A DNA stretch of 64,000 nt from an uncultured bacterium (GTDB lineage: Bacteria; Oederibacteriota; Oederibacteriia; Oederibacteriales; Oederibacteriaceae). A program made the translations under genes and the position numbers. Each line of letters starts with the position of its first letter. Within the stretch, counting starts at the first letter, position 1. This document shows positions 3,001-56,087 of the stretch, one piece after another. Below the pieces are notes generated by a model, which was given only the letters and a program-made list of their open reading frames with translations, was not told the DNA's origin and made no database searches. The stretch lies in NCBI GenBank assembly GCA_965112635.1, contig OZ218778.1, positions 1,845,807 to 1,909,806 of the forward strand, written 5' to 3'.

Positions 3001-6000
3001 TCCACGATTACAGCTACCCAGACGGCAACAACAACTGCTACTGCCACTGCTACATCTACGGTTACAGCTACCAATACAGCTACTGATACGACAACGAATA
3101 CGGCCACAAATACGACTACGAACACCACTACCAATACGGTTACTAACACGGCAACAAATACAGCGACGAATACGGCTACCAGTACGGCAACCAGTACGAG
3201 TACCACTACGAACACAGCCACGAACACAGCCACTAATACTGCGACAAATACAGGCACAAATACTGCTACCCAGACGATGACATCAACTGTTACTGCCACA
3301 GCTACATCTACTGCTACAACTACCAATACGGCGACCAGCACGGCAACTAATACAGCTACGAATACAGCTTCTCAGACAGCAACCGCAACCCCTACCGCCA
3401 CAGCTACGGCTTCTAATACAACAACCAATACTGCAACAAATACTGTCACTACCACGACTACCAACACGGCCACTACTACAGTTACCAATACGGCTACAAA
3501 TACCACTACAGATACGGCAACTAATACGACTACCAGCACAGCTACAAACACAGCAACTCAGACTTCTACGAACACCACTACCAGCACAGCTACAAATACG
3601 GTTACAAATACGGCTACTTCTACAATAACCAACACAGCTTCGAGTACCGCTACAAACACAACAACTAATACGATTACCAATACTGCTACAAACACAGCGA
3701 CTCAGACTGTGACGAACACGGCTACCATTACAGCTACAAGCACGACTACAAACACAGCTACGAACACGGCAACTAGCACTGCGACAAATACAGCGACGAA
3801 TACAGCTACAAGTACTGCAACAAGTACGAGTTCCGCTACCAATACAGCTACCAACACTGCTACAAATACCGTCACTAATACTGCTACGAACACGGCAACC
3901 AATACTGCGACAAATACAACGACGATTACAGCTACCCAGACGGCGACCTTAACTACTACTACCACAGCTACATCTACGGTTACGGCAACCAACACGGCTT
4001 CTAATACAACAACAAATACTGCTACCAGCACGGCCACTAATACGGCAACAAATACTGCTACAAATACTGCCACGAATACTGCTACACAGACGGCGAGCTC
4101 AACTGTTACTGCCACAGCGACAGCTACATTGACAGCGACCAACACAACCACAAACACGACTTCCAATACAACTACGAACTCAGACACTCCAACAGCTACG
4201 AACACCGCTACCATTACAGTTACCAGTACGGCCACTAATACTATGACTAATACATCAACTAGTACTGGCACGAATACCAATACAACAACCCAAACAACCA
4301 CGAACACAACAACAAATACGGCTACTTGGACGGCGACTATTACTCCTACTAATACCACCACGAACACAGCTACAAACACGACTACAAACACAACCACGAA
4401 CACAGCAACTAACACTGCGACAATTACTTCAACTACTACCACTACCAATACTGCCACCAATACGGTTACTAACACTGCAAGCAATACTGCTACAAATACA
4501 GCGACGATTACTGCTACCCAGACGGCGACCTCAACTGCTACCGCCACAGCTACATCTACGGTTACAGCGACCATCACAACTACTAACACGACTACGAATA
4601 CCGCTACGAACACGACCACTAATACAGCTACCAATACAGCGACCAATACGGCTACGAATACCGCCACGAATACAACAACTAATACGACTACCAATACAGC
4701 TTCAAACACGGCAACCCAGACGGCTACGAACACCGCTACTATTACCTCTACAAACACGACTACAAACACAGCCACCAACACGGAAACTAACACTGTGACT
4801 ATTACTTCAACTACTACCGCTACCAATACTGCCACCAACACCGCGACGAGTACTGCAACTAATACAGCTACAAACACGACCACGGGAACCGTAACAAATA
4901 CTGCAACCAACACAGCGACTCAGACGGCTACGAGCACCACTACAAATACAGCTACCAATACGGCCACCAATACTGTGACCAATACATCAACTAGTACAGG
5001 TACGAATACCGATACGGCAACCCAAACAACTACGAATACAACAACAAATACGGCGACTTGGACGGCGACTAATACTCCTACTAATACCATCACGAACACT
5101 TCCACTAACACGACTACAAATACCACAACAAATACTGCAACTAATACGGTAACGAACACAAATACGATCACGAATACAGCGACCCAGACGATTACCAATA
5201 CTGTGACCAGTACAACAACAAGCACCACGACTTATACAACAACGAACACGAGCACCAGCACTAACACGGCGACTCAAACCGCAACGAATACAACTACAAG
5301 CACTGTTACAAATACAAGCACCCAAACAGCGACAAATACGACTACTCAGACCGCCACTCAAACAGCAACTCAGACAGAGACAGTTACTGCAACCGACACG
5401 GCAACTCAAACTGCCACCCAGACAATCACTCAGACAGCGTCAAGTACGGAGACCGTCACGAATACCACCACAGCAACCAGCACGACTACGACAACCAATA
5501 CAACTACTGCAACTTGTTCGTCTACCTTGACCGCAACTCCTACAGTGACCAGCACGTTGACAACGACCTTTACGGGGACAAGTTCAGCAACTCAAACGGC
5601 GACTGCAACTAGTACAAATACGAATACGAATACTGCAACAGGCACTACGACCAATACGGAAACTAATACAGCTACTCAGACTGCTTCGAGTACCGTGACA
5701 ACAACTGGCACGCCGACGAATACGGTTACCTCGACAGCCACTATTTCCCTTACATTCACAAATACAGTGACTCAAACCACAACAGCTACGGCTACTTTGA
5801 CGGTTACGACTACTACTACAAGTACAATTACAAATACTGCCACCACCACCAATACGGAGACATCGACATCTACCAGCACGACCACTGGTTCGGAGACTGC
5901 TACAAGTTCCGCGACAACGACGCCCACTAATACTGGTACCTCAACCACTACCGCAACGGAAACGATTACCGCTACTATAACTTGTACATTTACCGAAACT

Positions 6001-7974
6001 TACACGGAAACTAGCACATCAACTAATACAGCTACTCCTACAAATACCTGCACTGTAACTGTGACTACAACTTCAACTGAAACTATGACTTCCACCTGTT
6101 CTTACACTGCCACTTTGACAGATACAGTGACTTTAACTTGGACTGAAACAGCAACTTGTACTGAGACGGCAACCTGGACTGAAACAAGTTCACCAACAGC
6201 AACTGCCACGATCACGCTGACCCCAACCTCGACTCAGACAGGGACCCAAACGGCGACTCAGACTGATACGCAATCTGCAACCTCTACGGGCACCCCAACA
6301 AGCACTAACACAGTTTCGAATACAGTGACCCAGACAAGTACCAGCACTTTAACTTCAACGTTGTCATCTACCGGAACGACCACATCAACTGGGACAATAA
6401 CGAGCACGGGAACAATGACTATGACAGCGACTAATACAGGTACAGTGACGTTGAGTTCTACCTCAACCAATACCCCCACTCCAACTCCAACAAGTAGTGC
6501 CACCAATACGATTACGCTGACTTATACTCAAACTAAGACTGGCACCGTCACCACTACAGCAACACAAACAGCAACGGTGACCACGACAGGCACCATCACC
6601 CTTACCTTTACACAAACGGCTACATCTACGATGACCGCCACGACGACCATGACAGCAACGATCACCCTGACCAGTACTATTACTTTGACTTTTACGCAGA
6701 CGGCAACAGCTACTAACACGGCAACGATCACTCTGACTTTCACGAGCACCAATTCTGCTACAAACACTGATACAGCATCTAGGACGAGCACCGCCACCAT
6801 GACAGCGACTATTACTCTGACCCCAACTATCACCCAGACACCTACAACAACTACTACATATTCTTTGACCCTAACTCCGAGTTTAACCTTTACTTATTTG
6901 CCTTCTTCTACCCAAACCATGACAAGCACCATTAGCCCAACTTCATCCAAAACACCAACAATCACTTTGACATTTACCCAATCCTTAACAACGACTAATA
7001 CCGGTACCGTGACGGTTACCATGACCATCACTACTACCGGGACCATAACGGCTACCTCCACTTCAACACAAACTTATTCGAGGACGGCGACTATCACCCT
7101 CACTGCCACAATTTCCAATACGCCCTCTCAAACCCTAACGCTTACAATTACAACCACCTCGTCCCTCACGCCTACTTCGACTAACACCAGTACAGCAACA
7201 AGGACTGCGACAGTTACCGCGACGAGCATTGGAACCTCTACCCAAACATGGACCTTAACCACCACTCTGACCCTAACCTATACTCCCACTACCACTATGA
7301 CCATTACGCTCACCACGACCCCTACGACGACTCCAACGCCCTCACTTACCCTAACCAGCACCTATTCAGTCACGTCTTCCCAAACCTTCACTGCTAGCAC
7401 GACCTTCACGATCACTCCCACCCCTGGACCTTCTACTCTAACGGTCCAGGTTTTGGATGCGTTTGATGAACTGAGGTTGTCTGGGGCCACGGTTTCTATC
7501 ACAGGGCCTTCAGGAACGCTAACTGGCAGTACGGATGGACGGGGGAATGTTACCTTTAACGGACTAGTCTTTGGGTCATATACCGTAAGTGCTTCAATGA
7601 CCGGCTATAATGGATCTTCAGGGAATGCTGTGCTAGCTCAACTAAATAATAGTTTGTTGATACGGCTCTACACGCAGTACAAGTCCAGTGTCCCTTATCT
7701 GACCAAGAACATAATCAACCCACTGAAAAATGAGAGCCTTGAGATCGGATGTCTGCTTACTCAGAAAGAGCACGTTTTGATCAAGATATTTACCCTTTCT
7801 GGCGGGGCAGAGATCATCACTCTTGTTGATCAGGACATTAGTCAGGGTCGCTATGCTGTAGAATGGTTCGGCAAAACCATTAATGGTGACACTGTGGGCA
7901 ATGGGATTTATATAGTCTTTATTCAACTCGGGACTGACAGGTTCATCAAGAAAGTCGCTGTAGTTAAGCAATAA
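1..7974 (+). CDS. Giant surface/secreted protein, 5'-partial (>2,650 aa). About 2,400 residues of alternating Thr-X (TNTATNTAT...), then a CarboxypepD_reg-like beta-sandwich (~7441-7680) and a C-terminal FlgD-Ig/T9SS-CTD-like domain (~7690-7974)
   Basis: Frame 1 is open from nt 1 (QTYTLTNTAT...), so the N-terminus lies outside the window. Thr sits at every second position from residue 1 to about 2450. The C-terminus reads GATVSITGPSG..DGRGNVTFNGLVFGSYTVSASMTGY (CarboxypepD_reg pattern), then NPLKNESLEIG..VLIKIFTLSGGAEIITLVD..VEWFGKT.NGDTVGNGIYIVFIQL..KKVAVVKQ. The same C-terminal domain family is shared by all cargo proteins in this window. Confidence 0.8.
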   Translation, partial: QTYTLTNTATVTSTNTNTQTATATATQTYSLTNTATATATNTNTRTATSTATYTLTSTATATATQTYTLTNTATATVTNTNTRTATSTATYTLTSTATATNTATNTATNTATSTATNTATQTATSTATATATSTVTATNTATSTTTSTATNTTTNTATNTATQTATATATRTYSLTNTATNTATPTLTSTTTATATSTVTATNTTTNTATNTATNTTTQTATSTTTATATSTITATSTATNTATNTATNTGTNTATNTVTQTMTATITVTATSTASATNSATNTATNTATNTATNTATNTATNTATQTATSTATATATSTVTATNTATSTTTSTATNTTTNTATNTATQTATATATQTYSLTNTATATSTNTNTQTATSTATYTLTSTATATATQTYTLTSTATATVTNTNTRTATSTATNTATSTATNTATNTATNTATPTLTSTTTATATSTVTATNTTTNTATNTATNTTTQTATSTTTATATSTITATSTATNTATNTATNTGTNTATNTVTQTMTATITVTATSTASATNSATNTATNTATNTATNTATNTATNTATQTATSTATATATSTVTATNTATSTTTSTATNTTTNTATNTATQTATATATQTYSLTNTATATVTNTNTRTATSTATNTATSTATNTATNTATNTATPTLTSTTTATATSTVTATNTSTNTATNTPTNTATWTATPTATATSTSTVTDTSTATYTGTNTATNTTTNTATNTATNTATNTATSTATSTSTTTNTVTNTVTNTATNTVTWTMTNTATNTATNTATQTATSTATATATSTVTATNTTTNTATNTATNTTTQTATSTTTATATSTITATSTATNTATKTATNTGTNTATNTVTQTMTATITVTATSTVTATNTATNTATNTASQTTTATTTTTATNTATNTSTNTATWTATLTATATLTSTVTATSTATYTGTNTATNTATNTATWTATNTATNTATNTNTQTATSTATATATSTNTVTNTTTNTATNTATNTSTITATQTATTTATATATSTVTATNTATDTTTNTATNTTTNTTTNTVTNTATNTATNTATSTATSTSTTTNTATNTATNTATNTGTNTATQTMTSTVTATATSTATTTNTATSTATNTATNTASQTATATPTATATASNTTTNTATNTVTTTTTNTATTTVTNTATNTTTDTATNTTTSTATNTATQTSTNTTTSTATNTVTNTATSTITNTASSTATNTTTNTITNTATNTATQTVTNTATITATSTTTNTATNTATSTATNTATNTATSTATSTSSATNTATNTATNTVTNTATNTATNTATNTTTITATQTATLTTTTTATSTVTATNTASNTTTNTATSTATNTATNTATNTATNTATQTASSTVTATATATLTATNTTTNTTSNTTTNSDTPTATNTATITVTSTATNTMTNTSTSTGTNTNTTTQTTTNTTTNTATWTATITPTNTTTNTATNTTTNTTTNTATNTATITSTTTTTNTATNTVTNTASNTATNTATITATQTATSTATATATSTVTATITTTNTTTNTATNTTTNTATNTATNTATNTATNTTTNTTTNTASNTATQTATNTATITSTNTTTNTATNTETNTVTITSTTTATNTATNTATSTATNTATNTTTGTVTNTATNTATQTATSTTTNTATNTATNTVTNTSTSTGTNTDTATQTTTNTTTNTATWTATNTPTNTITNTSTNTTTNTTTNTATNTVTNTNTITNTATQTITNTVTSTTTSTTTYTTTNTSTSTNTATQTATNTTTSTVTNTSTQTATNTTTQTATQTATQTETVTATDTATQTATQTITQTASSTETVTNTTTATSTTTTTNTTTATCSSTLTATPTVTSTLTTTFTGTSSATQTATATSTNTNTNTATGTTTNTETNTATQTASSTVTTTGTPTNTVTSTATISLTFTNTVTQTTTATATLTVTTTTTSTITNTATTTNTETSTSTSTTTGSETATSSATTTPTNTGTSTTTATETITATITCTFTETYTETSTSTNTATPTNTCTVTVTTTSTETMTSTCSYTATLTDTVTLTWTETATCTETATWTETSSPTATATITLTPTSTQTGTQTATQTDTQSATSTGTPTSTNTVSNTVTQTSTSTLTSTLSSTGTTTSTGTITSTGTMTMTATNTGTVTLSSTSTNTPTPTPTSSATNTITLTYTQTKTGTVTTTATQTATVTTTGTITLTFTQTATSTMTATTTMTATITLTSTITLTFTQTATATNTATITLTFTSTNSATNTDTASRTSTATMTATITLTPTITQTPTTTTTYSLTLTPSLTFTYLPSSTQTMTSTISPTSSKTPTITLTFTQSLTTTNTGTVTVTMTITTTGTITATSTSTQTYSRTATITLTATISNTPSQTLTLTITTTSSLTPTSTNTSTATRTATVTATSIGTSTQTWTLTTTLTLTYTPTTTMTITLTTTPTTTPTPSLTLTSTYSVTSSQTFTASTTFTITPTPGPSTLTVQVLDAFDELRLSGATVSITGPSGTLTGSTDGRGNVTFNGLVFGSYTVSASMTGYNGSSGNAVLAQLNNSLLIRLYTQYKSSVPYLTKNIINPLKNESLEIGCLLTQKEHVLIKIFTLSGGAEIITLVDQDISQGRYAVEWFGKTINGDTVGNGIYIVFIQLGTDRFIKKVAVVKQ
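290..2650 (+). repeat. Near-perfect long tandem DNA repeats inside the giant ORF (units of about 560-780 bp; e.g. 537-1304 vs 1305-2072, 343-520 vs 903-1080 vs 1683-1860)
   Basis: Minus-strand antisense ORFs 654..1067 and 1422..1835 give identical 137-aa translations. Visible nucleotide identity over hundreds of bp (e.g. gccacccagacggcgacctcaactgctaccgccacagctacatctacggttaccgccaccaatacggccaccagcactactaccagc recurs three times). Confidence 0.85.
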
Positions 7975-8030
7975 ATACACATGATTTTCGGTTGTTTTAT
8001 CTGGGAGGAACAGTTGAAAGGCTGGCTTAA

Positions 8031-8426
8031 ATGAACTGGAAAAAGGTTGTTCTTTGTATTTTTATTACCCTTTTCTCCTTATGGGGCAATCTTGCATTCA
8101 GCCAAGGCATTCCATGGCTGGACCAAGATGGGTTGTTTCTGGGCCATAACAAGATCAATCCGCTGAATCATGAGTCTGTATCTGTTGTCTATCATTTGGC
8201 GCAGGACACCCATGTGGTCATAAAAATTTATGATCTTTCCGGCCAGAAACTTATCAGGACATTAGTGGACGGGAATTTTGGAGGGAGTTGGTCATACCAA
8301 GTTTTTTGGGATGGCACCAGTAGAAGTGGAGATGTTGTTGGAAATGGTATTTACGTCATTCAGTTAGTAACCAAAAGTGTAAATATACTCAAATTCATTG
8401 CCGTGGTTAAAACCACAGGCAGTTAA
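8031..8426 (+). CDS. Small secreted protein made only of a signal peptide plus one FlgD-Ig/CTD-like domain (CTD-only minigene; paralog of the giant ORF C-terminus)
   Basis: MNWKKVVLCIFITLFSLWGNLAFSQG signal peptide. NPLNHESVSV..VVIKIYDLSGQKLIRTLVD..VFWDGTSRSGDVVGNGIYVIQL..KFIAVVK closely parallels the last 90 aa of 1..7974. GGGAGG RBS at ~8001. Confidence 0.7.
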   Translation: MNWKKVVLCIFITLFSLWGNLAFSQGIPWLDQDGLFLGHNKINPLNHESVSVVYHLAQDTHVVIKIYDLSGQKLIRTLVDGNFGGSWSYQVFWDGTSRSGDVVGNGIYVIQLVTKSVNILKFIAVVKTTGS

Positions 8427-8432
8427 AGGGGG

Positions 8433-10085
8433 GTGGGTAGGGTGCAAATCTTTATGGTTGGTTTGGTCATTCTGTTGATGTGGGCGCCCAATGTTTTTGG
8501 CACGGCTTTTGGAACCACGGGCCAAAATTTTCTAACCATTGGCGTTGGTGCAAGGCCGACGGCGATGGGAGGGGCTTTCGTCGGTCTAGCTGACGACCCT
8601 GATGCGATCCACTGGAACCCAGCTGGTTTGATTAATCTTGAAGACTATGAAATTTCCCTGATGCATAGCGCTCTCATCGGAGACGTCAGCTATGATACCG
8701 TTTCCTACGCCCAGCCCATAGCTGTTGATTATGGTTATATTGGAGCCGGCATTGCCTATTTAGGTGTCCCCCCGTTTGATAATACCGTTGGTCGCGAAAA
8801 CTCGATCTCTGCCCATAATTTCCTGTTAGACATTGCCTATGCGAATCGATTGAGCGATATGTTTGATATAGGCAATCCAATCGGCCGGCGTTTAAGTTTG
8901 GGACTAGGTATAAAATGGATCAATTTTTCGATCGATAACTTGGTGAGTTATAATGACGTGGCCTTCGATGTTGGCACCTATTTCATCACTCCCTGGGAAC
9001 CGTTAACTCTGGGCGCGAGTTTGCAAAATTTAGGTATTTCTCTGGACCCTGCCGCTGTTTCAGACCCACTGCCTTTGACCTTTAGATGCGGAGCGTGTGT
9101 CCACATTGCAGACCTATCTATGCAGCTTGACCTGATCCAGCAAGTGGATAATGACGCCGTGATAGGATGGGGAACAGAATATAATTTCCAGGATTTATTG
9201 TTCCTAAGGGGTGGTTATGCGATTGGCGGGCCTTCTCTAAACGGGTTGTCCGGGATAACATGCGGTGCCGGATGGAGGATGAGGTCCTTTGAGTTTGATT
9301 ATACCTTTGTACCTATGGGGGAGTTGGGCGCCACCCACCGTTTTTCTCTTAACGTTTCCTTTGAACAGGAGCTCAAAGAATTACGTAAGAATCTGGCCGT
9401 GGAATCCAAAGACAAGGTCCAAAAAGATGAAATCATTGCTTTATATAAGAAGGGCAATGAATTCTATTATCAGGGGAACTACACTCAAGCTTTGGATGCC
9501 TGGCAGCAGATCCTGATCGTGGACCCGAAAAATCAAAAAGCGCAGGAAAGAATCACTTTTACCACGAACCTTTTGAACAAGAAGTTCACGGAAAACGAAG
9601 CAACGCAGTATTATGAACAGGGAATGAGTGATTATTCGGCTGGTGACTACGAAAAGGCTTTGGAACAATGGGCTAGTGTCCAAAAGATAGTTCCCGATTA
9701 CTTGAATATAAAGGAGATGATAAGTAAGGCAGAGGCGAAGTTGGCTGAAAAGAGAGTCGACAGGGCTGGAGTGGGTCCTTTGCTTGAAGCTGCTCGTACT
9801 TCCTATAAACAAGGGCAACTGCTGGATGCCGTCAAAGATTGGAGAAAAGTTTTAGAAGCAAATCCTCAAAATCAGGAAGCCCTGAAGTCGTTAAAGGATG
9901 CTAATGCGGAGATTTTAAACTTGGCAAAGAAAACCTATGATAAGGGGTTAGAATTTTACACCAATGGGGATTACGATAATGCCATTGCCACCTGGAAAAA
10001 TGTGGTAATACTTCAGCCTGATCACCCAACCGTATTGGGTGATATTGAGAGAGCCCAGAAAGAGGTAAATTCGTTGAAAAAATAA
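8433..10085 (+). CDS. FadL/TodX/PorV-family outer-membrane beta-barrel fused to a C-terminal ~240-aa TPR-like extension
   Basis: N-terminal signal peptide. FadL-family N-motif GARPTAMGGAFVGLADDPDAIHWNPAGL. Barrel ends with a beta-signal-like FSLNVSF, followed by four or more TPR-like repeats (YYQGNYTQALDAWQQILIVDPKN..., YEKALEQW..., WRKVLEANPQN..., YDNAIATWKNVVILQPDH). The start may be GTG 8433/8442 or ATG 8454. Confidence 0.65.
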   Translation: MGRVQIFMVGLVILLMWAPNVFGTAFGTTGQNFLTIGVGARPTAMGGAFVGLADDPDAIHWNPAGLINLEDYEISLMHSALIGDVSYDTVSYAQPIAVDYGYIGAGIAYLGVPPFDNTVGRENSISAHNFLLDIAYANRLSDMFDIGNPIGRRLSLGLGIKWINFSIDNLVSYNDVAFDVGTYFITPWEPLTLGASLQNLGISLDPAAVSDPLPLTFRCGACVHIADLSMQLDLIQQVDNDAVIGWGTEYNFQDLLFLRGGYAIGGPSLNGLSGITCGAGWRMRSFEFDYTFVPMGELGATHRFSLNVSFEQELKELRKNLAVESKDKVQKDEIIALYKKGNEFYYQGNYTQALDAWQQILIVDPKNQKAQERITFTTNLLNKKFTENEATQYYEQGMSDYSAGDYEKALEQWASVQKIVPDYLNIKEMISKAEAKLAEKRVDRAGVGPLLEAARTSYKQGQLLDAVKDWRKVLEANPQNQEALKSLKDANAEILNLAKKTYDKGLEFYTNGDYDNAIATWKNVVILQPDHPTVLGDIERAQKEVNSLKK

Positions 10086-10191
10086 GAATCATTAACTTAT
10101 CTCAGAGCCAAAAACGGTAATAATATCTATATATTTGACAATTAAAATTTGGATAGGTAGACTTTCAACCAAATGGTGAGGATAAGTAAAT

Positions 10192-12192
10192 ATGAAAAGT
10201 AATTCCAATAAGAGAAGCTATTTTCCTTTTTATTGTTTTTGGATAGTTGTAAGTTTATTTCTCCTCCTTTCTGTTTCCATGCTCCTTCAAATTGCGCTTG
10301 CCCAAGACAATGCTTCTCATGTTGCCTCTATATCTGTTGATGAGGGTGTTAAGGCTTATTTAGGGGGGGATTTAGATAAGGCTATTTTATCCTTTGAAGA
10401 TGCGTTAAATTCCGGTCAGGACGCCGAAAAAATAAAGGCTCTTTTAGTAAAAGCCCTGGTGGAGCGGAGCAACCAGTTGTTCGTGCAGGGAGATTTTACC
10501 AAAGCTTTTACTTACTCCAGCCGCGCCAAAGAGTTAGCTCCCAATAACCAGGAAGTGGCCTTAATTAATAGCCTTATCCTGCAAGCTAAAAGAGCCGTTG
10601 ATGTGCGGCCTATCAGAAAAACAGAAACGGTTTTGATCAGGGAGACCAGCACTGCTAACCGCCAGATGCAGAAGCAAATAGGGCAATTACTAGAGGCTTT
10701 CAAGCAGACCCAGCAGAAAATCTCCTTGTTGAATGTTTCACCCACAGCCGTATCAAAGTCGGTCGGCGCAGATATTATCTTTTATGTTTTATTGATTGGG
10801 GTGTTATTGGCCGGTGCGATTATCGTGTTTATTAGAGTGTGGTTTAGGTCCCACGAATCAATATTTACCCAGCAGCAAAATAAATTATTAGGTGTCATCT
10901 ATAACCAACAGCAAGTCCTGCTCAAAGATAACCAGAGGCTTGTTCCTGAGTCTACTCCAACCAACAAGGAAAGCATTAGCACGAGGGAAATGCTCAGCGA
11001 TCTCAATCCGCATGTCCGGGCCAGAGGCTTGGAGGTCTTGGCTGAGGAGCTCGAGCGCGAAAAGACTCCGAGCATTGTGGCCAAAAAGATCATTACCCCG
11101 TTTTTAAGCGAAAAAGACAATCGAGTCAGGGGCAATGCCGTTAAGGTTCTTTATAAATACGACGTTGAACAGGCGCGCGAGATCTTGAGGGAGATGTTTT
11201 GGAGTGGCAATGAATGGATGAGGCTTTCGGCAGCTTGGGTAATCGGGGAAGTAGCGGATCACGAGGGTGCGAGATGGATATTGCAGGCTATGGATGAGGC
11301 TCTGCCTCACCTGAAGCGGCGTTGCATCAAAACGATCCAGATATTTTTGAAGAATAGGAATCCACAATTACCCCTAGATCTTCATGACCAGATGAAGGAA
11401 ACGCTGGAAAAATTTAGGGATTATGTAGAAGAGGAAAACTCCCGACCTAATAGCCAGTCAGGAGTTTTGGGCACTACTACGGACAGTAAGGGGGGGGCTA
11501 CCGATGACAGTTCAAGCAGAAACATTTCGCCGAGGTGGAGGTACGTTTTAAAGAATTTATTTAGGAAACAGTGGCAAGCTCTAGAACGAGAGGTTCGGGA
11601 GCGCGAGCGGATAGCGTTCAAGTCCAGGGAAGACGTTGAATCTTTAGCTTTAGCAGAAAAGCAGAGGAATATTAGGCTTAGTACTGATATGGAAAAGTTG
11701 GAAAGGCAATATTTTGCCGTAAAAAAGAAGCTGGAAGAAGCAGAGAGCCAGTTTGCAGAATATAAAGCAGAGAATGACAGGGTGAGCAATCTGTTAAGTC
11801 AAAATTTGGCGGAGATCAATGAGCTCAAAAAGATCAAAGAAGATTTCAAAAAGGTCGTTGAAGAGAACAAAAACCTCCAGAATATGCTCATGGATAAAAG
11901 TAGTTCTTGGGCCACGGTTGTTCCAGGCGGGAGCCCTATTCTCGATGAAAGCAAAAGCAAAGCGGATGATGTACAGAATCTGGTCAATTCATACACGGAA
12001 TTGGAAAAACAGTGGCAAGCCATTTTGGCGGAGAAAGAAAGCCGTGTGGGTTCCCTTAAACAAAAAATGACGGAAACGGACGAGAAAGTCAAAAAAAAGG
12101 GGGAAGTTCGTAAGAAAGTAAGCAAAGAAAAAAGCAGCAGTATCGGAAGGTTGTATTATTTTGTGAACAAGAAATTGGGCGGTCTGCAGTAA
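10192..12192 (+). CDS. Membrane protein: N-terminal TM, periplasmic TPR-like region, second TM, cytoplasmic HEAT/PBS-lyase-like repeats and a long Lys/Glu-rich coiled coil
   Basis: Hydrophobic segments FPFYCFWIVVSLFLLLSVSMLLQIALA and IIFYVLLIGVLLAGAIIVFIRVWF. HEAT-like NPHVRARGLEVLAEEL..DNRVRGNAVKVLYKY..WMRLSAAWVIGEVAD. Coiled-coil C-terminus. sigma70-like promoter candidates in the AT-rich spacer 10086-10191. Confidence 0.5.
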   Translation: MKSNSNKRSYFPFYCFWIVVSLFLLLSVSMLLQIALAQDNASHVASISVDEGVKAYLGGDLDKAILSFEDALNSGQDAEKIKALLVKALVERSNQLFVQGDFTKAFTYSSRAKELAPNNQEVALINSLILQAKRAVDVRPIRKTETVLIRETSTANRQMQKQIGQLLEAFKQTQQKISLLNVSPTAVSKSVGADIIFYVLLIGVLLAGAIIVFIRVWFRSHESIFTQQQNKLLGVIYNQQQVLLKDNQRLVPESTPTNKESISTREMLSDLNPHVRARGLEVLAEELEREKTPSIVAKKIITPFLSEKDNRVRGNAVKVLYKYDVEQAREILREMFWSGNEWMRLSAAWVIGEVADHEGARWILQAMDEALPHLKRRCIKTIQIFLKNRNPQLPLDLHDQMKETLEKFRDYVEEENSRPNSQSGVLGTTTDSKGGATDDSSSRNISPRWRYVLKNLFRKQWQALEREVRERERIAFKSREDVESLALAEKQRNIRLSTDMEKLERQYFAVKKKLEEAESQFAEYKAENDRVSNLLSQNLAEINELKKIKEDFKKVVEENKNLQNMLMDKSSSWATVVPGGSPILDESKSKADDVQNLVNSYTELEKQWQAILAEKESRVGSLKQKMTETDEKVKKKGEVRKKVSKEKSSSIGRLYYFVNKKLGGLQ

Positions 12193-12295
12193 CCATCCGT
12201 GAGTAAGTCTGTTTTCCTGACGCAAGAATTCCTAGAGTAGATTGGTTCTTTAAATTTGAGTAATTGGTTGCATAAAAACACGGAGGCGAGAAAAA

Positions 12296-14278
12296 GTGCC
12301 AGAGAAAAGCGAGGTTGTTTTAAATATTGAGGGTAACAGGGTAACGGTTTCTGCAGAGACCAGTTCTTTGTCTATTCTGCGGATGTTTGTGGACAGAAAA
12401 CTTCGGGAGTTTTCCTTCAAACAAGATGACATTGATGCAATCGAATTGGCCGTTGACGAAGCCTGCACAAATATTATTGAGTACGCTTATCCTGATGCCC
12501 CAGGTCCAGAAAAGACCATTACGCTTGAAATTGGGTTGACCAGGGATGATGTCCATGTATTTATTATGGATTATGGAGTCCCCGTTCCCGAAAAGGTCGT
12601 AAAAAAATTTAGCAGCGTTAAAGGAAAGCCTAAAGGCGAACAAGTGGGGGGCTGGGGTATCTACTTAATTGCTAATTCGGTCAACGAGGTTCGATATAGT
12701 CGCAAAAAGAACGCAAATATTTTGAGATTAAAAAGAAAGCGTTTGAAATTATCAGCAGTCGCAGGGAGGCGTCCTTTTTTTGTGGGCTCTCTTTCTTTAC
12801 GGGCCCAATTTAACGCCTATATTTTCTTCATCTTTTTAGTAAGTGCTGTTTGTATAGCCTTTTTGATCATCCCACAAGAGCGCCGTATCATAGAAAGCAG
12901 ATCAATCAACAATGGCATATGGCTGGCTAGGAATTTCGCCGGCAGGGTCACGGCTCCTTACTTAGCGCATGATCAGTTGACCCTGGCAGTAACCGCCCGC
13001 TTAATGGAGGAAAATCCCCAGGTCGCCTACGCTGTCATTACCGATTCAAAAGATATAGTCCAAATAGACCCAAAAGGGCAGCTGTCTGGTTTATTATTCA
13101 GCCATGGGTATTTTGGAAATCCTATTTTAGCGCAAGAAAATGTGCGATGCAGAGAAGCGAGGGTTTTAGATATGAATGTCTATGACCTTCAGTCAGATCT
13201 CACAATCAGGCATCTTAATAAGGCAGTGACTCTCGGCTCCATTCACCTGGGTTTGAACCGCAATATCATTAATCAGGTCATCAATGATGCTATCAGGAAC
13301 ATTGGAATTATCGCTATTATGATCCTATTAGTCATACTTGTTTTAACGTCGATCATGACAGAGTTTGTAATTCGGCCTATTAGAAAGCTAATGGCCGGAG
13401 TTCGACAAATAGGGAACGGTTATTTCGATTATCGCCTTGATTTGAAAAGTACCCAGGAGTTAAAAGAGCTTTCGGATGCTTTTAATATCATGGCTCGCGA
13501 CTTAAAGCAAGGGCGCGAAACGCAGCTAGAAAAGATCAAGATCGAGCAGGAGCTGGATATGGCCAGCCATGTCCAAAAACTGTTATTGCCCAAAGAGATC
13601 CCGTCCATTCCGGGTTGCGACTTTGGAATGTTCTACCGGTCAGCCAAACAACTGGGAGGAGATTATCTAGATTTTATACCTATCAGTGATGAGTTGATGG
13701 GTATTGTGATCGCCGATGTGGCAGGAAAGGGAGTTCCCGCCGCATTGATGATGTCCAATGTTCGGAGTACCCTAAGGGCTGCAGCTAAAAGCGAAAGGTC
13801 ACCCAAAAAAGTTCTGACTTTTCTAAATGAGCAAATAACCAAAGATACCACGCCGGATGTTTTTATAACGATGCTTTACTGTATTTTTAATTTGCAAAAC
13901 AGGGAAATTAAATATGCTTCAGCAGGACATTGTCCCTTGCTTTGCTTGCCTGCTGGACGCAATAAGATTATTGAATATAAAACCCTGGGTTTTCCACTGG
14001 GAATAGAGCAGGGGCCAAAGTTTGAGGAAAGGTTGGAAGAAGGGGATCAATTGTTAAAGACCGGAGATATTATAGTGTTATACTCCGACGGGGTGAATGA
14101 AGCTTTTAACAACAGAGGTGAAGAATTCGGAGAAAAGAGACTTTTTGAAGCCATTCTTAAGAACCAAGATTTAACTGCCCAGCAGTTAGCTACTCTAATT
14201 GAAAATGAAGTTAGTTCCTTTATTGGACAAAAGAAACGCAGCGATGATATCAGTATTATCACCTGTAAAATAAAATAA
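12296..14278 (+). CDS. Partner-switching signalling protein: N-terminal RsbW/SpoIIAB-like GHKL anti-sigma kinase domain, TM, periplasmic sensor, TM, HAMP, then PP2C/SpoIIE Ser phosphatase
   Basis: GHKL motifs AVDEACTNIIEYAY..FIMDYGVP..GGWGIYLIANSV. Two TM helices flank a ~150-aa loop. HAMP (IRPIRKLMAGVRQIGNGYFDYRL..ELSDAFNIMARDL). PP2C motifs GGDYLDFIPI..GIVIADVAGKGVPAALMMS..VLYSDGVNEAFN..DDISIITCKI. GTG start with GGAGG RBS. Confidence 0.7.
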   Translation: MPEKSEVVLNIEGNRVTVSAETSSLSILRMFVDRKLREFSFKQDDIDAIELAVDEACTNIIEYAYPDAPGPEKTITLEIGLTRDDVHVFIMDYGVPVPEKVVKKFSSVKGKPKGEQVGGWGIYLIANSVNEVRYSRKKNANILRLKRKRLKLSAVAGRRPFFVGSLSLRAQFNAYIFFIFLVSAVCIAFLIIPQERRIIESRSINNGIWLARNFAGRVTAPYLAHDQLTLAVTARLMEENPQVAYAVITDSKDIVQIDPKGQLSGLLFSHGYFGNPILAQENVRCREARVLDMNVYDLQSDLTIRHLNKAVTLGSIHLGLNRNIINQVINDAIRNIGIIAIMILLVILVLTSIMTEFVIRPIRKLMAGVRQIGNGYFDYRLDLKSTQELKELSDAFNIMARDLKQGRETQLEKIKIEQELDMASHVQKLLLPKEIPSIPGCDFGMFYRSAKQLGGDYLDFIPISDELMGIVIADVAGKGVPAALMMSNVRSTLRAAAKSERSPKKVLTFLNEQITKDTTPDVFITMLYCIFNLQNREIKYASAGHCPLLCLPAGRNKIIEYKTLGFPLGIEQGPKFEERLEEGDQLLKTGDIIVLYSDGVNEAFNNRGEEFGEKRLFEAILKNQDLTAQQLATLIENEVSSFIGQKKRSDDISIITCKIK

Positions 14279-14294
14279 GGAAAGGAGTTAGTCC

Positions 14295-14654
14295 ATGAGT
14301 GAAACTGGTTTGGATATTGTTATTGCCGGGACAGAGTCTAAAAAAGGATGCAAATTAATATTAAAAGGGTATTTAGACGCTGAAACTGTTCCAAAGTTAA
14401 ATGCCAAAATGAAAGATGTTATCCAACAAAAAACAAGCAAAATAATACTTGATCTACAAGAGATATCTTTTATTAGCAGTGCAGGGTGGGGAGCGTTGGT
14501 GATTTTGGCAAAAACGGCTCAAAGAGAAAAAGGAAACATAGTACTAATCAATTTGGGCCCTAAGCTGGCCAGGACCTTTAATCTTTTGGACCTATCTCCA
14601 ATCTTGCAAGTATTTTCTAGTGAAGCCGATGCGTCTGCATTTTTGAATAAATAA
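14295..14654 (+). CDS. STAS-domain anti-sigma-factor antagonist (RsbV/SpoIIAA-like)
   Basis: 119 aa. KIILDLQEISFISSAGWGALVILAKTAQREKGNIVLINLGPKLARTFNLLDL has the typical STAS fold signature with the conserved phospho-Ser context (ISSAG). Lies 16 bp downstream of the kinase/phosphatase gene. Confidence 0.75.
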   Translation: MSETGLDIVIAGTESKKGCKLILKGYLDAETVPKLNAKMKDVIQQKTSKIILDLQEISFISSAGWGALVILAKTAQREKGNIVLINLGPKLARTFNLLDLSPILQVFSSEADASAFLNK

Positions 14655-14848
14655 ACTAATCGGTAGGTCTAACGAAAGTTCAGTGGTAACCTTTTAATTA
14701 AAACTATTCTTCTGTCATTTATGATGCCTAATCCCTTTTATTCCATTTTTTTTAATATTCCTATTGATTTTATTGAAAATAGTTGTATTTTTGTGTTAAA
14801 ATTGATATAATAAAATATGTTATAAAGTATGTAACAAAAGGGTTGCAA

Positions 14849-15718
14849 ATGCAAAAGTCTGTGGCTATTGGCACCGTGGTCAGAATGACCGGGCTCTCCA
14901 AGGTAGTGTTGCGTTATTGGGAAAAACTCGGTCTCATCAAACCTCTGCGTTCTGAAAAAGGACGCCGCCGTTATGATATGGACCAACTTAAAGAGATAAT
15001 CAGGATCAAAGAACTCCTGAAAAAGCACCGTATGCGGGTTTCAGAACTGGTCAACTCCACCGAGCTTCTAAAAGATAACTTCCTAAAAACGATTTTTGAC
15101 AACGAACTGGAACAGGATATTGATAACCTCAAGAGTGGAACAGGGGACCTTAAGCCAGGAGACTCAGGGTTTGTGCCGGATTCTATGGCCGCCAATATTA
15201 TGATGGAACGGATCGAACGAAGGATCGCCAAAGGTAAGCCGTTAGCCCTTATCTTCCTGGATATTCTCCATTTAGATGAATTCCGACAGCGGTACGGGGA
15301 GGAGCGCACTAACAAACTTTTGAATTTTTCCGCTGTCCTTATTTTAGATATGATCGGCAGTTACGGGAATGCCGAGGATAGCGTACATCACCTTGGCCAG
15401 GGCCGGTTCATTATTCTTACCACTCCCAATAAATTTCAGGGTATCATCCCATCAATCCTTTCTTCCTTCCAAGAATTCGTTGTTTTTAAATATGATGAGA
15501 AGGATCAGGCGCCTATGCTGTTGAGAATAAAATCCGGACTTTTAGAAGGGAAAGACCAGCCTGGAAAAGGATTTCCTGTCGCGGCCTTAAAAGTGCTTGT
15601 TCAGACCAACCGAAAGTTTATTAATCAAATCATGTCCAATCCAGAAAACAGGAGTGCTGATTCTGTTCTAAATAAGTTGAAAGAAACAAGCACGCCTTTT
15701 GTGCCGCCAACCTTATGA
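14849..15718 (+). CDS. MerR-family HTH regulator fused to a degenerate GGDEF-like domain (GQGRF in place of GG[DE]EF)
   Basis: MQKSVAIGTVVRMTGLSKVVLRYWEKLGLIKPLRSEKGRRRY is the MerR HTH signature. C-terminal LALIFLDILHLDEFRQRYGEERTNKLLNFSAVLILDMIG...HHLGQGRFIILTT follows the GGDEF-domain pattern (lALilLDiDhFKqiNDtyGH...aRlGGDEFvill) with a non-canonical active site. The ORF track start 14783 lies in AT-rich promoter DNA; ATG 14849 is preferred. The 3' end overlaps tsaB (ATGA). Confidence 0.6.
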   Translation: MQKSVAIGTVVRMTGLSKVVLRYWEKLGLIKPLRSEKGRRRYDMDQLKEIIRIKELLKKHRMRVSELVNSTELLKDNFLKTIFDNELEQDIDNLKSGTGDLKPGDSGFVPDSMAANIMMERIERRIAKGKPLALIFLDILHLDEFRQRYGEERTNKLLNFSAVLILDMIGSYGNAEDSVHHLGQGRFIILTTPNKFQGIIPSILSSFQEFVVFKYDEKDQAPMLLRIKSGLLEGKDQPGKGFPVAALKVLVQTNRKFINQIMSNPENRSADSVLNKLKETSTPFVPPTL

Positions 15719-37783: not shown

Positions 37784-37912
37784 GCTTTTTCCCTTTCCGT
37801 AACTTGATAATCGATCCCTAACTCTCTATACTTTAACAGAAAACTATTGTAATCTCATTTGCAGGCACGAACAATACCTGAAGAAAAACCATTGGTAAAA
37901 AAGAAGAAAACC

Positions 37913-52583: not shown

Positions 52584-52780
52584 TGTGCCTGCCGCGAATG
52601 AATTCAGGGGATGCGTCAGAATAGAAAAAAGGATAAGGAATGCGATGGCTTGAGATTTTTGTGTCGTAGGGCTAACCTCCTAAAATATCGGGTCACTATC
52701 GGCAGAGAACCCAGGTATGGCTAGAGAATAATATTATACTACTGGTAAGAGAAGACCTGACCCAGGTTCACCATCATTCT

Positions 52781-53725: not shown

Positions 53726-53754
53726 ACACAGGGAACACAGGCAGATAAGAGTGA

Positions 53755-55992: not shown

Positions 55993-56087
55993 TCCTTTGG
56001 AATAGGGAAATTAGAAGATTATCTACGTGTTTCTTCAATTATATGGCAAAAAACGGTTGTATTGGTCTTTGCAAATCCTGGGTATTT

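What the first reader, a model, noticed from the sequence alone, without database searches (positions are those of the whole stretch)
9340..10085. FadL/PorV-like barrel carrying a ~240-aa TPR extension AFTER its beta-signal-like terminus
In 8433..10085 the barrel ends with HRFSLNVSF, the same terminal motif style as the three stand-alone paralogs (..SLTVDF, ..SLGASF, ..SLSVFF). The polypeptide then continues with four or more TPR-like repeats. OMP beta-signals are normally at the extreme C-terminus. A post-barrel soluble domain implies either an unusual BAM substrate or proteolytic separation, with the TPR module acting as a periplasmic adaptor. The next gene (10192..12192) begins with a periplasmic TPR region between two TM helices, so these may be interaction partners spanning the inner membrane and outer membrane.
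Basis: partly seen in the sequence, partly recalled or inferred. Interest (0 to 1): 0.6.

Follow-up and report, generated by a model that had tools for sequence, protein, structure and literature searches.

The report
PorV-like barrel with periplasmic TPR arm
This gene really does encode an outer-membrane barrel of the PorV/PorQ family with a 240-residue TPR tail; it belongs to a widespread uncharacterised subfamily whose genes almost always lie between a giant surface-protein gene and a membrane sensor gene, which suggests that the tail links a surface anchor to signalling.

Summary
ORF 8433..10085 encodes a signal peptide, a 14-stranded PorV/PorQ-family barrel ending ...HRFSLNVSF (residue 310, where three stand-alone paralogs stop), and four near-consensus TPR units (residues 311-550) in one continuous frame.

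The fusion is not an oddity or an artefact. More than 100 database representatives (one per 50%-identity cluster) share the architecture, and relatives carry OmpA, FN3 or short TPR tails. An internal last strand followed by a periplasmic domain is the OmpA arrangement, so neither unusual BAM handling nor proteolysis need be invoked.

The proposed partner, 10192..12192, is an orphan with no detectable homolog and is absent from all related loci examined.

What is conserved is a cassette:
- a giant protein with a T9SS-type C-terminal sorting domain;
- the PorV-TPR gene;
- a TM / ~140-aa periplasmic Cache-like / TM / HAMP sensor with variable output.

The sensor lies immediately downstream in 18 of 21 species-representative loci. 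It follows none of 59 PorV-like genes that lack the long tail. In the window it is 12296..14278, followed by a STAS gene.

The best reading is a cargo-dedicated anchor barrel whose periplasmic TPR arm couples to that sensor. This is inferred from synteny and is not demonstrated. No description of the cassette was found.

The parts
13..7974 (+). Giant cargo gene, truncated at its 5' end by the window (at least 2653 aa). It has alternating-Thr (T-x)n repeats, a CarboxypepD_reg-like domain, and a C-terminal T9SS type-A-like sorting domain (CTD) at about 7696..7968.
   Evidence: One search gives the ORF. One search gives CarboxypepD_reg at 32.8 bits; the C-terminus is 43% identical (E 4e-20) to the CTD of 8031..8426; only a weak direct hit, to the PorZ C-terminus (17.6 bits).
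8031..8426 (+). Small secreted protein (131 aa) that is essentially a signal peptide plus a T9SS type-A CTD.
   Evidence: TIGR04183 Por_Secre_tail scores 25.7 bits against a cutoff of 23. FlgD_ig scores 21.1 bits. N-terminal hydrophobic segment at residues 6-24.
8433..10085 (+). The whole PorV/PorQ-family barrel plus TPR-tail gene (550 aa).
8433..8501 (+). Signal peptide (about residues 1-23, ...LLMWAPNVFG).
   Evidence: One search shows the hydrophobic segment at residues 4-22. The rest is read directly from the sequence.
8505..8648 (+). N-terminal hatch/plug region containing the invariant WNPAG motif (8613..8627). This holds the NPA hatch motif of the FadL superfamily.
   Evidence: W61, N62, P63, A64 and G65 are invariant in alignments A1 and A2; this is the most conserved segment (mean column conservation 0.58).
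8649..9362 (+). 14-stranded beta-barrel (residues 73-310). The last strand, HRFSLNVSF (9336..9362), is beta-signal-like.
   Evidence: One search gives the 14 strands. One search gives PorV as the best fold match. One search shows the paralogs stopping after the homologous F.
9363..10082 (+). Periplasmic all-helical TPR arm (residues 311-550). It comprises a linker (311-331) and four units of about 55 aa: 9426..9593, 9594..9764, 9765..9920 and 9921..10079. The last unit carries the family-invariant A517 and W521.
   Evidence: Searches identify the TPRs. One search shows helices with pLDDT mostly above 90. One search gives the invariant columns. One search shows the last unit is the best-conserved tail unit.
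10192..12192 (+). Lineage-specific orphan gene inserted in the cassette. It has a signal peptide or TM segment, a periplasmic TPR-like region, a second TM segment, then cytoplasmic HEAT repeats and a coiled coil. It is probably not a core part of the system.
   Evidence: HEAT_2 at 35.5 bits and a weak TPR_2 hit. TM segments at 18-36 and 195-213; no homolog found; no similarity to the HEAT protein of L061.
12296..14278 (+). Membrane sensor. Domains in order: RsbW-like HATPase_c_2 (12350..12730), TM, periplasmic sCache_3_2-like domain (12872..13300), TM, HAMP (13367..13507), and a PP2C/SpoIIE phosphatase (13688..14272). It is the conserved downstream partner gene.
   Evidence: One search gives the Pfam domains (sCache_3_2 is below threshold, 25.5 against 28.4). 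One search gives TM segments at 174-192 and 336-354; the sensor-module HMM scores 230 bits.
14295..14654 (+). STAS-domain protein (anti-sigma-factor-antagonist type). It is the presumed substrate of the kinase and phosphatase domains of the sensor.
   Evidence: STAS scores 67.6 bits. The same STAS gene follows the sensor in L006 and L007.

Best explanation
8433..10085 encodes a genuine two-domain outer-membrane protein. After Sec export, the N-terminal part folds into a 14-stranded PorV/PorQ-family (FadL-superfamily) barrel. Its last strand (..HRFSLNVSF) serves as an internal beta-signal, as in OmpA-type proteins. The remaining 240 residues stay in the periplasm as an elongated arm of four TPR units.

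The barrel is the dedicated partner of the protein or proteins encoded just upstream. It binds their T9SS-type C-terminal domain and holds the giant Thr-rich protein at the cell surface, in the way PorV, PorQ and PorP/SprF hold their cargo.

The TPR arm, whose distal unit is the best conserved, reaches toward the inner membrane. It contacts the roughly 140-residue periplasmic Cache-like domain of the sensor encoded downstream (12296..14278). The state of the surface protein or anchor is thereby relayed to a cytoplasmic output. Here that output is an RsbW-like kinase plus PP2C phosphatase acting on the STAS protein 14295..14654. In other lineages it is a histidine kinase or a nucleotide cyclase.

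Shown here: the architecture, the fold, family membership, conservation of the fusion, and the conserved three-gene neighbourhood.

Inferred: periplasmic location of the tail, CTD binding by the barrel, and above all the physical and functional coupling between tail and sensor.
For: Architecture and fold.

The fusion is conserved and the tails are homologous. Fifteen homologs align end to end, with invariant A517 and W521. There are 21 full-length loci among GTDB species representatives, labelled Calditrichota, Elusimicrobia, 'Clostridia', Deltaproteobacteria or Muiribacteriota MAGs. More than 100 of the best 150 50%-identity representatives are single-stretch full-length matches of 600-700 aa.

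Periplasmic side:
- The barrel has 14 strands, an even number.
- Relatives have an OmpA peptidoglycan-binding domain at the same position, in L068, L079 and L086.
- A secreted stand-alone tail paralog, 21830..23122, scores 193 bits against the tail HMM, while a generic TPR protein scores 27.5.

Cargo link:
- The upstream ORF ends in a CTD-like domain in 19 of 21 loci. TIGR04183 is at or above its cutoff in L010, L012, L015, L033 and L047.
- In the window the giant ORF's C-terminus is 43% identical to the CTD of 8031..8426, which itself passes TIGR04183.
- The window's three barrel-only paralogs also sit directly after CTD-bearing genes.
- PorV binds CTDs, and PorP/SprF anchor their adjacent type-B CTD cargo (PMC9143113; PDB 8gl6 title).

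Sensor link:
- The ORF immediately downstream is a TM/Cache-like/TM/HAMP protein in 18 of 21 loci and also in L003, L005 and L006.
- An HMM of the sensor module hits full length only after TPR-tailed genes. It hits 0 of 59 ORFs immediately downstream of barrel-only or other-tailed PorV-like genes. Fisher p = 3.7e-15, not corrected for phylogeny.
- The input module is conserved while the outputs differ: histidine kinase, cyclase, or PP2C with STAS.

Precedent for CTD/PorV-linked signalling to an inner-membrane sensor: PorA-PorV-PorY in P. gingivalis (PMC7712824 and PMC12152298).
Against: - No direct evidence of any protein-protein contact was obtained.
- Synteny could reflect co-regulation only.
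- The 18 positive loci fall into a few clades (about 11 Calditrichota, about 7 in one histidine-kinase-type group), so the number of independent events is small.
- In the window an orphan gene (10192..12192) and a sigma-70-like promoter match (10135..10163) separate the PorV-TPR gene from the sensor.
- The window's tail is the shortest in the family, at 240 aa against 320-390.
- Three tailed loci (L013, L014, L061) lack the sensor.
- The giant ORF's own CTD does not reach the TIGR04183 threshold.
- Whether the genome has a T9SS translocon is unknown.
- In P. gingivalis the sensor PorY is activated by the CTD itself in the periplasm, independently of PorV.
Confidence: 0.45

Rival explanations
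1. The tail is a built-in PorE/PorW-like structural or secretion adaptor. It scaffolds the anchor barrel to other envelope components (cell wall, translocon, or periplasmic cargo) or chaperones the giant cargo or its CTD before export. The adjacent sensor is only co-regulated, or senses unexported CTD directly as PorY senses PorA, without touching the tail.
For: In P. gingivalis the 14-stranded FadL-family barrel PorP binds a type-B CTD protein outside and the periplasmic TPR/OmpA_C lipoprotein PorE inside, and porP-like genes lie next to porE-like genes (PMC9143113). Relatives of this protein carry OmpA, with or without TPR, fused to the barrel, which amounts to PorP and PorE in one chain. 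The PorA CTD activates PorY in the periplasm independently of PorV. A small CTD-only protein, 8031..8426, is encoded in the cassette.
Against: This does not explain why the sensor module follows only the long-TPR-tailed form and none of the 59 other PorV-like genes, which also follow CTD cargo genes. The window's tail has no OmpA_C or other wall-binding domain.
Confidence: 0.3
2. One reading: the TPR tail docks onto the periplasmic TPR-like region of the next gene's product (10192..12192), forming a bridge between the inner and outer membranes.
For: The gene is adjacent and on the same strand. Its product has the predicted topology, with hydrophobic segments at 18-36 and 195-213 and a weak TPR_2 hit between them. 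The window's tail is 2-3 units shorter than in relatives, so an extra periplasmic piece could compensate.
Against: The protein has no detectable homolog at all and is absent from every other cassette. It has no similarity to the tail profile or to the HEAT protein that follows the short-tailed L061 gene. It may have its own promoter.
Confidence: 0.08
3. It is a FadL-type importer of hydrophobic small molecules. Its TPR tail hands the substrate to a periplasmic or inner-membrane transporter, as proposed for T. pallidum TP0548, TP0859 and TP0865.
For: The FadL superfamily fold and the invariant NPA hatch motif are present. Pfam UPF0164, the treponemal family, scores 31.5 bits against a cutoff of 21.4. 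The model in PMC8407342 supports this reading.
Against: No transporter genes lie in the cassette. The invariant neighbours are CTD-bearing giant proteins and sensors. The best sequence and fold matches are PorV, not FadL. Toluene_X is below its threshold, at 18.8 against 29.7.
Confidence: 0.07
4. The two parts function separately. Either the fusion is an assembly or annotation artefact, or the tail is proteolytically released after barrel insertion.
For: The linker (residues 311-331) is the least conserved segment and has lower pLDDT, 68-77. A stand-alone secreted tail-like protein exists at 21830..23122.
Against: The same continuous fusion is seen in more than 100 divergent representatives from independent assemblies. 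There is no internal start with an SD motif. Processing is untested.
Confidence: 0.05

Closest known systems
[quoted passage not shown]
   Same: It scores above the family HMM threshold (161.5 against 90). It has a 14-stranded FadL-type barrel with an NPA hatch motif. PorV is the best PDB match by both fold and profile. The gene sits next to genes for proteins with a type-A-like CTD.
   Different: It is not an ortholog of PorV, PorQ or PorV2, because the equivalog scores of 62.9, 77 and 65.8 are far below the cutoffs of 250, 220 and 325. In the AF2 model the segments linking strands are only 2-14 residues long. It carries a 240-aa periplasmic TPR tail that characterised PorV and PorQ lack. The organism is nearest to candidate division FCPU426 by SecA, and no T9SS core gene lies in the window.
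[quoted passage not shown]
   Same: A cargo-dedicated 14-stranded FadL-family barrel is encoded next to its CTD cargo. It binds the cargo outside and a periplasmic TPR-containing partner (PorE) inside. The present protein looks like that arrangement with the periplasmic TPR module fused to the barrel.
   Different: PorP belongs to a different subfamily that handles type-B CTDs. PorE is a separate lipoprotein with beta-propeller, CRD and OmpA_C domains. No sensor gene is part of that module.
Treponema pallidum FadL-like OMPs TP0548, TP0859 and TP0865 (Pfam UPF0164; PMC8407342)
   Same: The Pfam family is hit above threshold. The barrel is followed by a C-terminal alpha-helical extension, presumed periplasmic, that contains a TPR motif.
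   Different: The treponemal tails are short three-helix bundles with one TPR motif and are known only from models. They were proposed to serve nutrient uptake, and that paper found no other FadL member with such a tail. Here there are four TPR units (up to about seven in relatives), CTD cargo upstream and a sensor downstream. Homology between the two kinds of tail was not tested.
OmpA-type two-domain outer-membrane proteins
   Same: An N-terminal barrel whose last strand is internal is followed by a soluble periplasmic C-terminal domain. This shows that BAM substrates need not end at the beta-signal (established knowledge). Some relatives of this protein carry an OmpA_C domain itself.
   Different: OmpA has an 8-stranded barrel of an unrelated family, and its periplasmic domain binds peptidoglycan rather than being a TPR array.
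Trans-envelope signalling: PorA-PorV-PorY (PMC7712824, PMC12152298) and FecA-FecR-type TonB-dependent transducers
   Same: An outer-membrane or surface component of a secretion or uptake system reports to an inner-membrane sensor through a periplasmic protein contact. In the Fec type, the barrel itself carries the periplasmic signalling extension and the genes are adjacent.
   Different: In PorA-PorY the ligand is the CTD and the signal is independent of PorV. In Fec systems the extension is N-terminal, the barrel has 22 strands and depends on TonB, and the partner is an anti-sigma factor. A C-terminal TPR arm on a PorV-type barrel paired with a Cache/HAMP sensor was not found in the literature searched.

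Membership tests
PorV/PorQ family (NCBIfam NF033709) | Whole-protein score above the curated cutoff with full-length model coverage | tested here: met
   The score is 161.5 bits against a cutoff of 90. Residues 28-310 cover model positions 1-326 of 326.
PorV/PorQ family (NCBIfam NF033709) | 14-stranded FadL-type beta-barrel with an N-terminal hatch | tested here: met
   AF2 gives 14 strands at pLDDT 89.6. The best Foldseek matches are PorV chains 8gl6_F and 6h3i_F. A profile search against PDB gives PorV at E 8e-40. WNPAG is invariant.
PorV/PorQ family (NCBIfam NF033709) | Functional association with CTD-bearing (T9SS-type) cargo | tested here: inconclusive
   Only gene neighbourhood was tested. 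CTD-ending genes lie directly upstream here and in 19 of 21 related loci. Binding was not tested, and the giant ORF's own CTD is below the TIGR04183 threshold.
Type IX secretion system component | Genome encodes the T9SS core (SprA/Sov translocon, PorK/L/M/N, PorU sortase) | not testable with these tools
   Only 64 kb of a contig of about 2.88 Mb is available. None of the window ORFs scanned matches a core component.
PorV proper (NF033710), PorQ proper (NF033711) and PorV2 (NF052325) equivalogs | Score above the equivalog cutoff | tested here: not met
   Scores are 62.9 against 250, 77 against 220, and 65.8 against 325.
FadL/TodX/Toluene_X (Pfam PF03349) | Score above the gathering threshold | tested here: not met
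   The score is 18.8 bits against 29.7. The fold is similar (TbuX and FadL at E about 2e-7 to 5e-7, TM-score normalised to the target 0.45-0.49), and the NPA motif is present.
UPF0164 (Pfam PF03687, treponemal FadL-like OMPs) | Score above the gathering threshold | tested here: met
   The score is 31.5 bits against 21.4, but only model positions 39-107 of 325 are covered.
TPR repeat proteins (Pfam TPR_1, TPR_2, TPR_11, TPR_16) | 34-residue helix-turn-helix repeats scoring above the gathering threshold | tested here: met
   TPR_2 scores 64.9 against 27, TPR_1 59.6 against 27.8, TPR_11 56 against 26.8 and TPR_16 53.9 against 32.7. Consensus TPR proteins in the PDB are hit at E 8e-42. However, the units are separated by long helices, and global TM-scores to contiguous TPR superhelices are low, 0.10-0.18.
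Cell-surface signalling barrel (FecA-type TonB-dependent transducer) | 22-stranded TonB-dependent barrel with an N-terminal signalling domain, paired with an anti-sigma factor | tested here: not met
   The barrel has 14 strands, the extension is C-terminal, and the partner is a Cache/HAMP protein. This is an analogy of principle only.

The most novel reading that the evidence does not exclude
The cassette is a previously undescribed trans-envelope surface-sensing device. A PorV-type barrel holds the C-terminal domain of a giant surface protein (adhesin-like or S-layer-like). Its rigid periplasmic TPR arm transmits occupancy, load or loss of that protein directly to the periplasmic Cache-like domain of an inner-membrane HAMP transducer. 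The interchangeable outputs (histidine kinase, cyclase, or partner-switching PP2C/STAS) then reprogram the cell. On this reading, CTD/PorV-type surface anchoring in phyla outside the Bacteroidota is hard-wired to signalling.
Probability: 0.3. Interest if true: 0.75.

Novelty: new variant of a known kind. Interest (0 to 1): 0.5.

Why it matters
PorV, PorQ and PorP-type barrels are known as cargo shuttles and anchors of the Bacteroidota type IX secretion system.

This work shows three things:
- A large uncharacterised branch of that family, present in Calditrichota, Elusimicrobiota, Zixibacteria, lineages near FCPU426 and others, carries a long periplasmic TPR arm.
- Cargo gene followed by dedicated barrel gene is a general layout in these organisms.
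- The TPR-armed form is specifically wired, at the gene-order level, to Cache/HAMP sensors with different outputs.

If the arm does contact the sensor, this would be a new route by which bacteria monitor a giant surface protein across two membranes. That route would be directly testable, because the three partners are encoded side by side.

The result also corrects the impression that an internal beta-signal is anomalous. It extends the isolated T. pallidum observation of helical tails on FadL-like OMPs to many environmental phyla.

Tried and rejected
1. Structure prediction of a chimera (tail, Gly-Ser linker, sensor periplasmic domain) with a 14-row paired alignment (A4).

2. The search for related loci with the 16-sequence alignment failed because no stretch was conserved enough. 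A 6-sequence alignment worked.

3. Naming the organism. Exact look-ups of 11 window proteins gave only unnamed singleton clusters, or no record at all for three of them. SecA homologs place it nearest to candidate division FCPU426, Firestonebacteria and Goldbacteria at about 62-65% identity. The window's own genome was not among the GTDB representative hits.

4. Testing whether 10192..12192 is a conserved partner. It has no homologs, no similarity to the HEAT protein after the L061 gene, and no match to the tail HMM. Rejected as a general partner.

5. A neighbour-joining tree of the barrel region, to ask whether the fusion arose once. The tree was star-like and unresolved, so no conclusion was drawn.

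6. A reciprocal census starting from the sensor module. Alignment A5 was too divergent to be useful (2 invariant columns), so the census was not run.

7. Promoter and terminator scans over 7800..15000 found no more than shuffled controls did (21 against 14.4 +/- 4.1 promoters; 6 against 7.2 terminators). Only the 10/12 promoter match at 10135..10163 was noted.

8. Literature searches for a described PorV-TPR or PorV-sensor cassette found nothing.
Full report
**Observation**

ORF 8433..10085 (+) is real and continuous. It is 550 aa from a GTG start, and the public database copy, P0001, begins three codons later.

NCBIfam places residues 28-310 in the PorV/PorQ family. NF033709 scores 161.5 bits against a cutoff of 90 and covers the whole model. 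The equivalog models for PorV, PorQ and PorV2 are far below threshold. Pfam finds TPR_1, TPR_2, TPR_11 and TPR_16 above threshold in residues 320-550. It also finds a partial but above-threshold hit to UPF0164, the treponemal FadL-like family.

An AlphaFold2 model built on a 43-sequence alignment has mean pLDDT 89.6. It shows a signal peptide, a hatch region (about residues 25-72), 14 beta-strands (73-309) and ten helices (311-549). Foldseek against the PDB ranks PorV in the SprA translocon complexes first (8gl6_F and 6h3i_F), then TbuX and FadL. A profile search confirms that this chain is PorV, at E 8e-40.

The barrel ends ...THRFSLNVSF at 9336..9362. They end with the homologous ...F followed by a stop codon and all pass NF033709.

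The tail (9363..10082) is four units of about 55 aa. Each unit is a near-consensus TPR followed by a long helix. Designed consensus TPR proteins are its best PDB sequence matches. No in-frame start codon with an SD-like motif lies near the junction.

**Is the fusion unusual?**

A word-indexed search found 15 homologs that align over both barrel and tail, from MAGs labelled Elusimicrobia and Zixibacteria among others. Family-invariant residues occur in the hatch (W61-N-P-A-G65), in the last strand (H302) and in the last TPR unit (A517, W521).

A scan of one genome per GTDB species returned 21 full-length fusion loci. Many are Calditrichota; the rest are labelled Elusimicrobia, 'Clostridia', Deltaproteobacteria or Muiribacteriota MAGs. 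An exhaustive profile search of 1.84 billion 50%-identity representatives returned more than 100 proteins of 600-700 aa among the best 150, each matching the whole profile in one stretch. It also returned barrel proteins of about 1200 aa with longer tails.

Other members of the family carry different post-barrel extensions:
- FN3, OmpA plus beta-helix, or CsgG-like domains;
- OmpA with or without FlgD_ig, TSP_3 or TPR, and short TPR tails.

OmpA_C is a peptidoglycan-binding periplasmic domain. Its presence at the same position is independent support that these C-terminal extensions are periplasmic. So is the even strand number. So is a secreted stand-alone paralog of the tail at 21830..23122, which scores 193 bits against a tail HMM where a generic TPR protein in the window scores 27.5.

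A barrel whose last strand is internal and is followed by a periplasmic domain is the classical OmpA layout (established knowledge). T. pallidum FadL-like TP0548, TP0859 and TP0865 have been modelled with C-terminal helical extensions containing a TPR motif (PMC8407342). Nothing therefore requires an unusual BAM route or proteolytic separation. Processing itself could not be tested.

**Surroundings in the window**

Upstream lies a giant ORF truncated at its 5' end (13..7974, at least 2653 aa). Most of it is alternating-Thr repeats. It has a CarboxypepD_reg-like domain and a C-terminal domain that is 43% identical (E 4e-20) to the C-terminal domain of the next gene, 8031..8426. That 131-aa protein is a signal peptide plus a T9SS type-A sorting domain, with TIGR04183 at 25.7 against a cutoff of 23.

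Downstream of the PorV-TPR gene come three genes:
- 10192..12192, with a signal peptide or TM segment, a TPR-like periplasmic stretch, a second TM segment, then HEAT repeats and a coiled coil;
- 12296..14278, with HATPase_c_2, a TM segment, an sCache_3_2-like periplasmic domain, a second TM segment, HAMP and a PP2C/SpoIIE domain;
- 14295..14654, a STAS protein.

The three barrel-only paralogs also sit directly after genes whose products end in FlgD_ig/Por_Secre_tail-type domains, or after a subtilase that follows such genes. No T9SS core gene was found among the window ORFs scanned. By SecA, the organism is nearest to candidate division FCPU426, Firestonebacteria and Goldbacteria, at about 62-65% identity.

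**Comparative context**

In every one of seven contigs retrieved for fusion homologs, the gene upstream on the same strand encodes either a very large surface-type protein or, in L006, CBM_48 proteins. The large proteins range from 1000 to more than 5600 aa and carry Big_5, fn3, Big_1, Por_Secre_tail or CHU_C domains. The upstream gene often overlaps the PorV-TPR gene by 4 nt.

In six of the seven, the gene immediately downstream is a HAMP membrane sensor. The seventh is interrupted by an IS element, with a HAMP protein further on.

In the 21 GTDB loci, ORF calling plus Pfam gives the same picture:
- The upstream ORF usually runs off the 8-kb flank, and in 19 of 21 loci it ends in a CTD-like motif (...IRIFTLxGELV...WDGxND.G..V.NGVYL...K..YIK). 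TIGR04183 is at or above its cutoff in five of the nine tested.
- In 18 of 21 loci the downstream ORF is TM / ~140-aa Cache-like / TM / HAMP, followed either by HisKA-HATPase or by PP2C (the PP2C type also carries an N-terminal RsbW-like HATPase_c_2 and often a C-terminal HTH). L003 has an adenylate/guanylate cyclase (Pfam Guanylate_cyc) output. L006 and L007 are followed by STAS genes, as the window is.

The sensor input modules align across these architectures. An HMM built from them hits full length only the ORF after TPR-tailed genes. Among 59 barrel-only or other-tailed PorV-like loci it never hits the downstream gene. There is one unrelated hit 7 kb away on the other strand, in L037. Fisher's exact test gives p = 3.7e-15, but this is not corrected for phylogeny. 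The positive loci fall into only a few clades.

By contrast, 10192..12192 has no detectable homolog anywhere. It is absent from all other cassettes. It does not resemble the tail or the HEAT protein that follows the short-tailed L061 gene.

**How it most likely works**

Shown here: a PorV-family barrel with a periplasmic-type TPR arm, encoded in a conserved cassette between CTD-bearing giant cargo and a Cache-like/HAMP sensor.

Inferred, step 1. The barrel binds the CTD of the upstream protein or proteins and holds them at the surface. The analogies are:
- PorV with its substrate's CTD (entry 8GL6);
- the PorU-PorV-PorQ-PorZ attachment complex;
- PorP and SprF, which anchor their adjacent type-B CTD cargo (PMC9143113).

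Inferred, step 2. The TPR arm is a periplasmic docking device. Its distal unit is the best-conserved part of the tail.

Inferred, step 3. The arm's partner is the periplasmic domain of the adjacent sensor, so that the state of the surface protein or anchor controls a cytoplasmic output. In this window that output is partner-switching on the STAS protein.

Step 3 rests on gene order alone. It has precedents in principle: PorA-PorV-PorY signalling in P. gingivalis (PMC7712824 and PMC12152298) and FecA-type transducers.

The main rival is that the arm is a fused PorE/PorW-like structural or secretion adaptor, while the sensor is merely co-regulated or senses unexported CTD directly. That would fit the PorE-PorP-PG1035 complex and the PorV-independent action of the PorA CTD on PorY. 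It does not explain why the sensor accompanies only the TPR-tailed form.

**Comparison with known systems, and novelty**

By HMM and by fold the protein is a member of the PorV/PorQ family. It is not an ortholog of PorV, PorQ or PorV2. It is not a Pfam FadL/Toluene_X member by score, although it shares the fold and the NPA motif.

Functionally it resembles a PorP-PorE pair fused into one chain, with the overall layout of OmpA. Public annotation calls such proteins simply 'PorV/PorQ family protein'. Full-text searches found no description of the tailed subfamily or of its cassette. The T. pallidum paper states that no other FadL member with a similar tail was found in Pfam.

I therefore rate it a new variant of a known kind. 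The architecture itself is ordinary for the family. The specific and conserved linkage of the TPR-armed form to Cache/HAMP sensors is new and testable.

**Verdict**

Interest is moderate, at 0.5.

Noticed in passing
window 13..7974 (+): Giant ORF, open at its 5' end (at least 2653 aa), in which almost every second residue over about 2300 aa is Thr ((T-x)n with N, A, S, Q or V between). This produces extreme strand composition (GC skew about -0.39, AT skew about +0.40 over 1..6000) and many spurious antisense Val-rich ORFs. It ends with a CarboxypepD_reg-like domain and a CTD. It could be a heavily O-glycosylated S-layer-like or mucin-like fibre, or an ice-binding-like TxT array. The upstream giants in other cassettes are not Thr-repeat proteins.
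   Followed up: partly
window 8031..8426 (+): A 131-aa protein consisting of little more than a signal peptide and a type-A CTD, lying between the giant cargo gene and the PorV-TPR gene. In design it recalls P. gingivalis PorA, whose CTD is a ligand of the sensor kinase PorY. None of the other cassettes examined has room for such a gene, because the gap from cargo to barrel is -28 to 35 nt in most.
   Followed up: partly
window 21830..23122 (+): A stand-alone secreted protein of 430 aa made of about seven units of the same TPR-plus-long-helix type as the tail, each with the A...W..AL...P motif. It scores 193 bits against the tail HMM. It lies between purA and a GH42-like gene, with no PorV-like gene nearby.
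   Followed up: partly
window 37859..40059 (+) and 51663..63373 (-): Two further 'CTD cargo followed by PorV-like barrel' arrangements. In the first, 37859..39079 (DUF11 plus CTD) is followed by 38968..40059. In the second, 59810..63373 and 56088..59744 (FG-GAP/DUF11 plus CTD) and 53755..55992 (S8 subtilase) are followed by two tandem barrels, 52781..53725 and 51663..52583. ORFs 37859..39079 and 38968..40059 overlap by 112 nt as listed. The NF033709 match starts at residue 81 of the latter, so its true start is probably further downstream.
   Followed up: partly
window 10192..12192 (+): A 666-aa membrane protein (periplasmic TPR-like region, cytoplasmic HEAT repeats, long coiled coil) with no detectable homolog among 5.8 billion clustered proteins. 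It is a true orphan inserted into an otherwise conserved cassette, preceded by a 10/12 sigma-70-like promoter match at 10135..10163.
   Followed up: yes
L068, L079, L086, L053 (whole PorV-like ORFs); P0045, P0060, P0066, P0088, P0112: PorV/UPF0164-family barrels with other C-terminal extensions: FlgD_ig plus OmpA plus TPR, TSP_3 plus OmpA, TSP_3 alone, FN3, CsgG-like, and OmpA plus beta-helix. The family is a modular platform for periplasmic add-ons, and the OmpA/TPR versions look like fused PorP-PorE pairs.
   Followed up: partly
P0128, P0129, P0131, P0134, P0138, P0225, P0231 and others: Proteins of 2000-4000 aa containing 10-17 stretches that match the tail part of the profile, and proteins of about 1200 aa with the barrel at the N-terminus and a much longer tail (P0130, P0132, P0142, P0169, P0173). 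The tail repeat type is itself a large, expandable repeat family.
   Followed up: no
L004 7001..13604: In this Elusimicrobia MAG the cassette is interrupted just after the PorV-TPR gene by an IS200-type transposase (Y1_Tnp) and tad pilus genes. A short HAMP protein and a GAF-HD protein lie about 4 kb further on.
   Followed up: no
window 14783..15718 (+): A MerR-family HTH regulator of about 290-311 aa, with an uncharacterised C-terminal domain, directly follows the STAS gene. It may be the transcriptional end of the cassette or unrelated.
   Followed up: no
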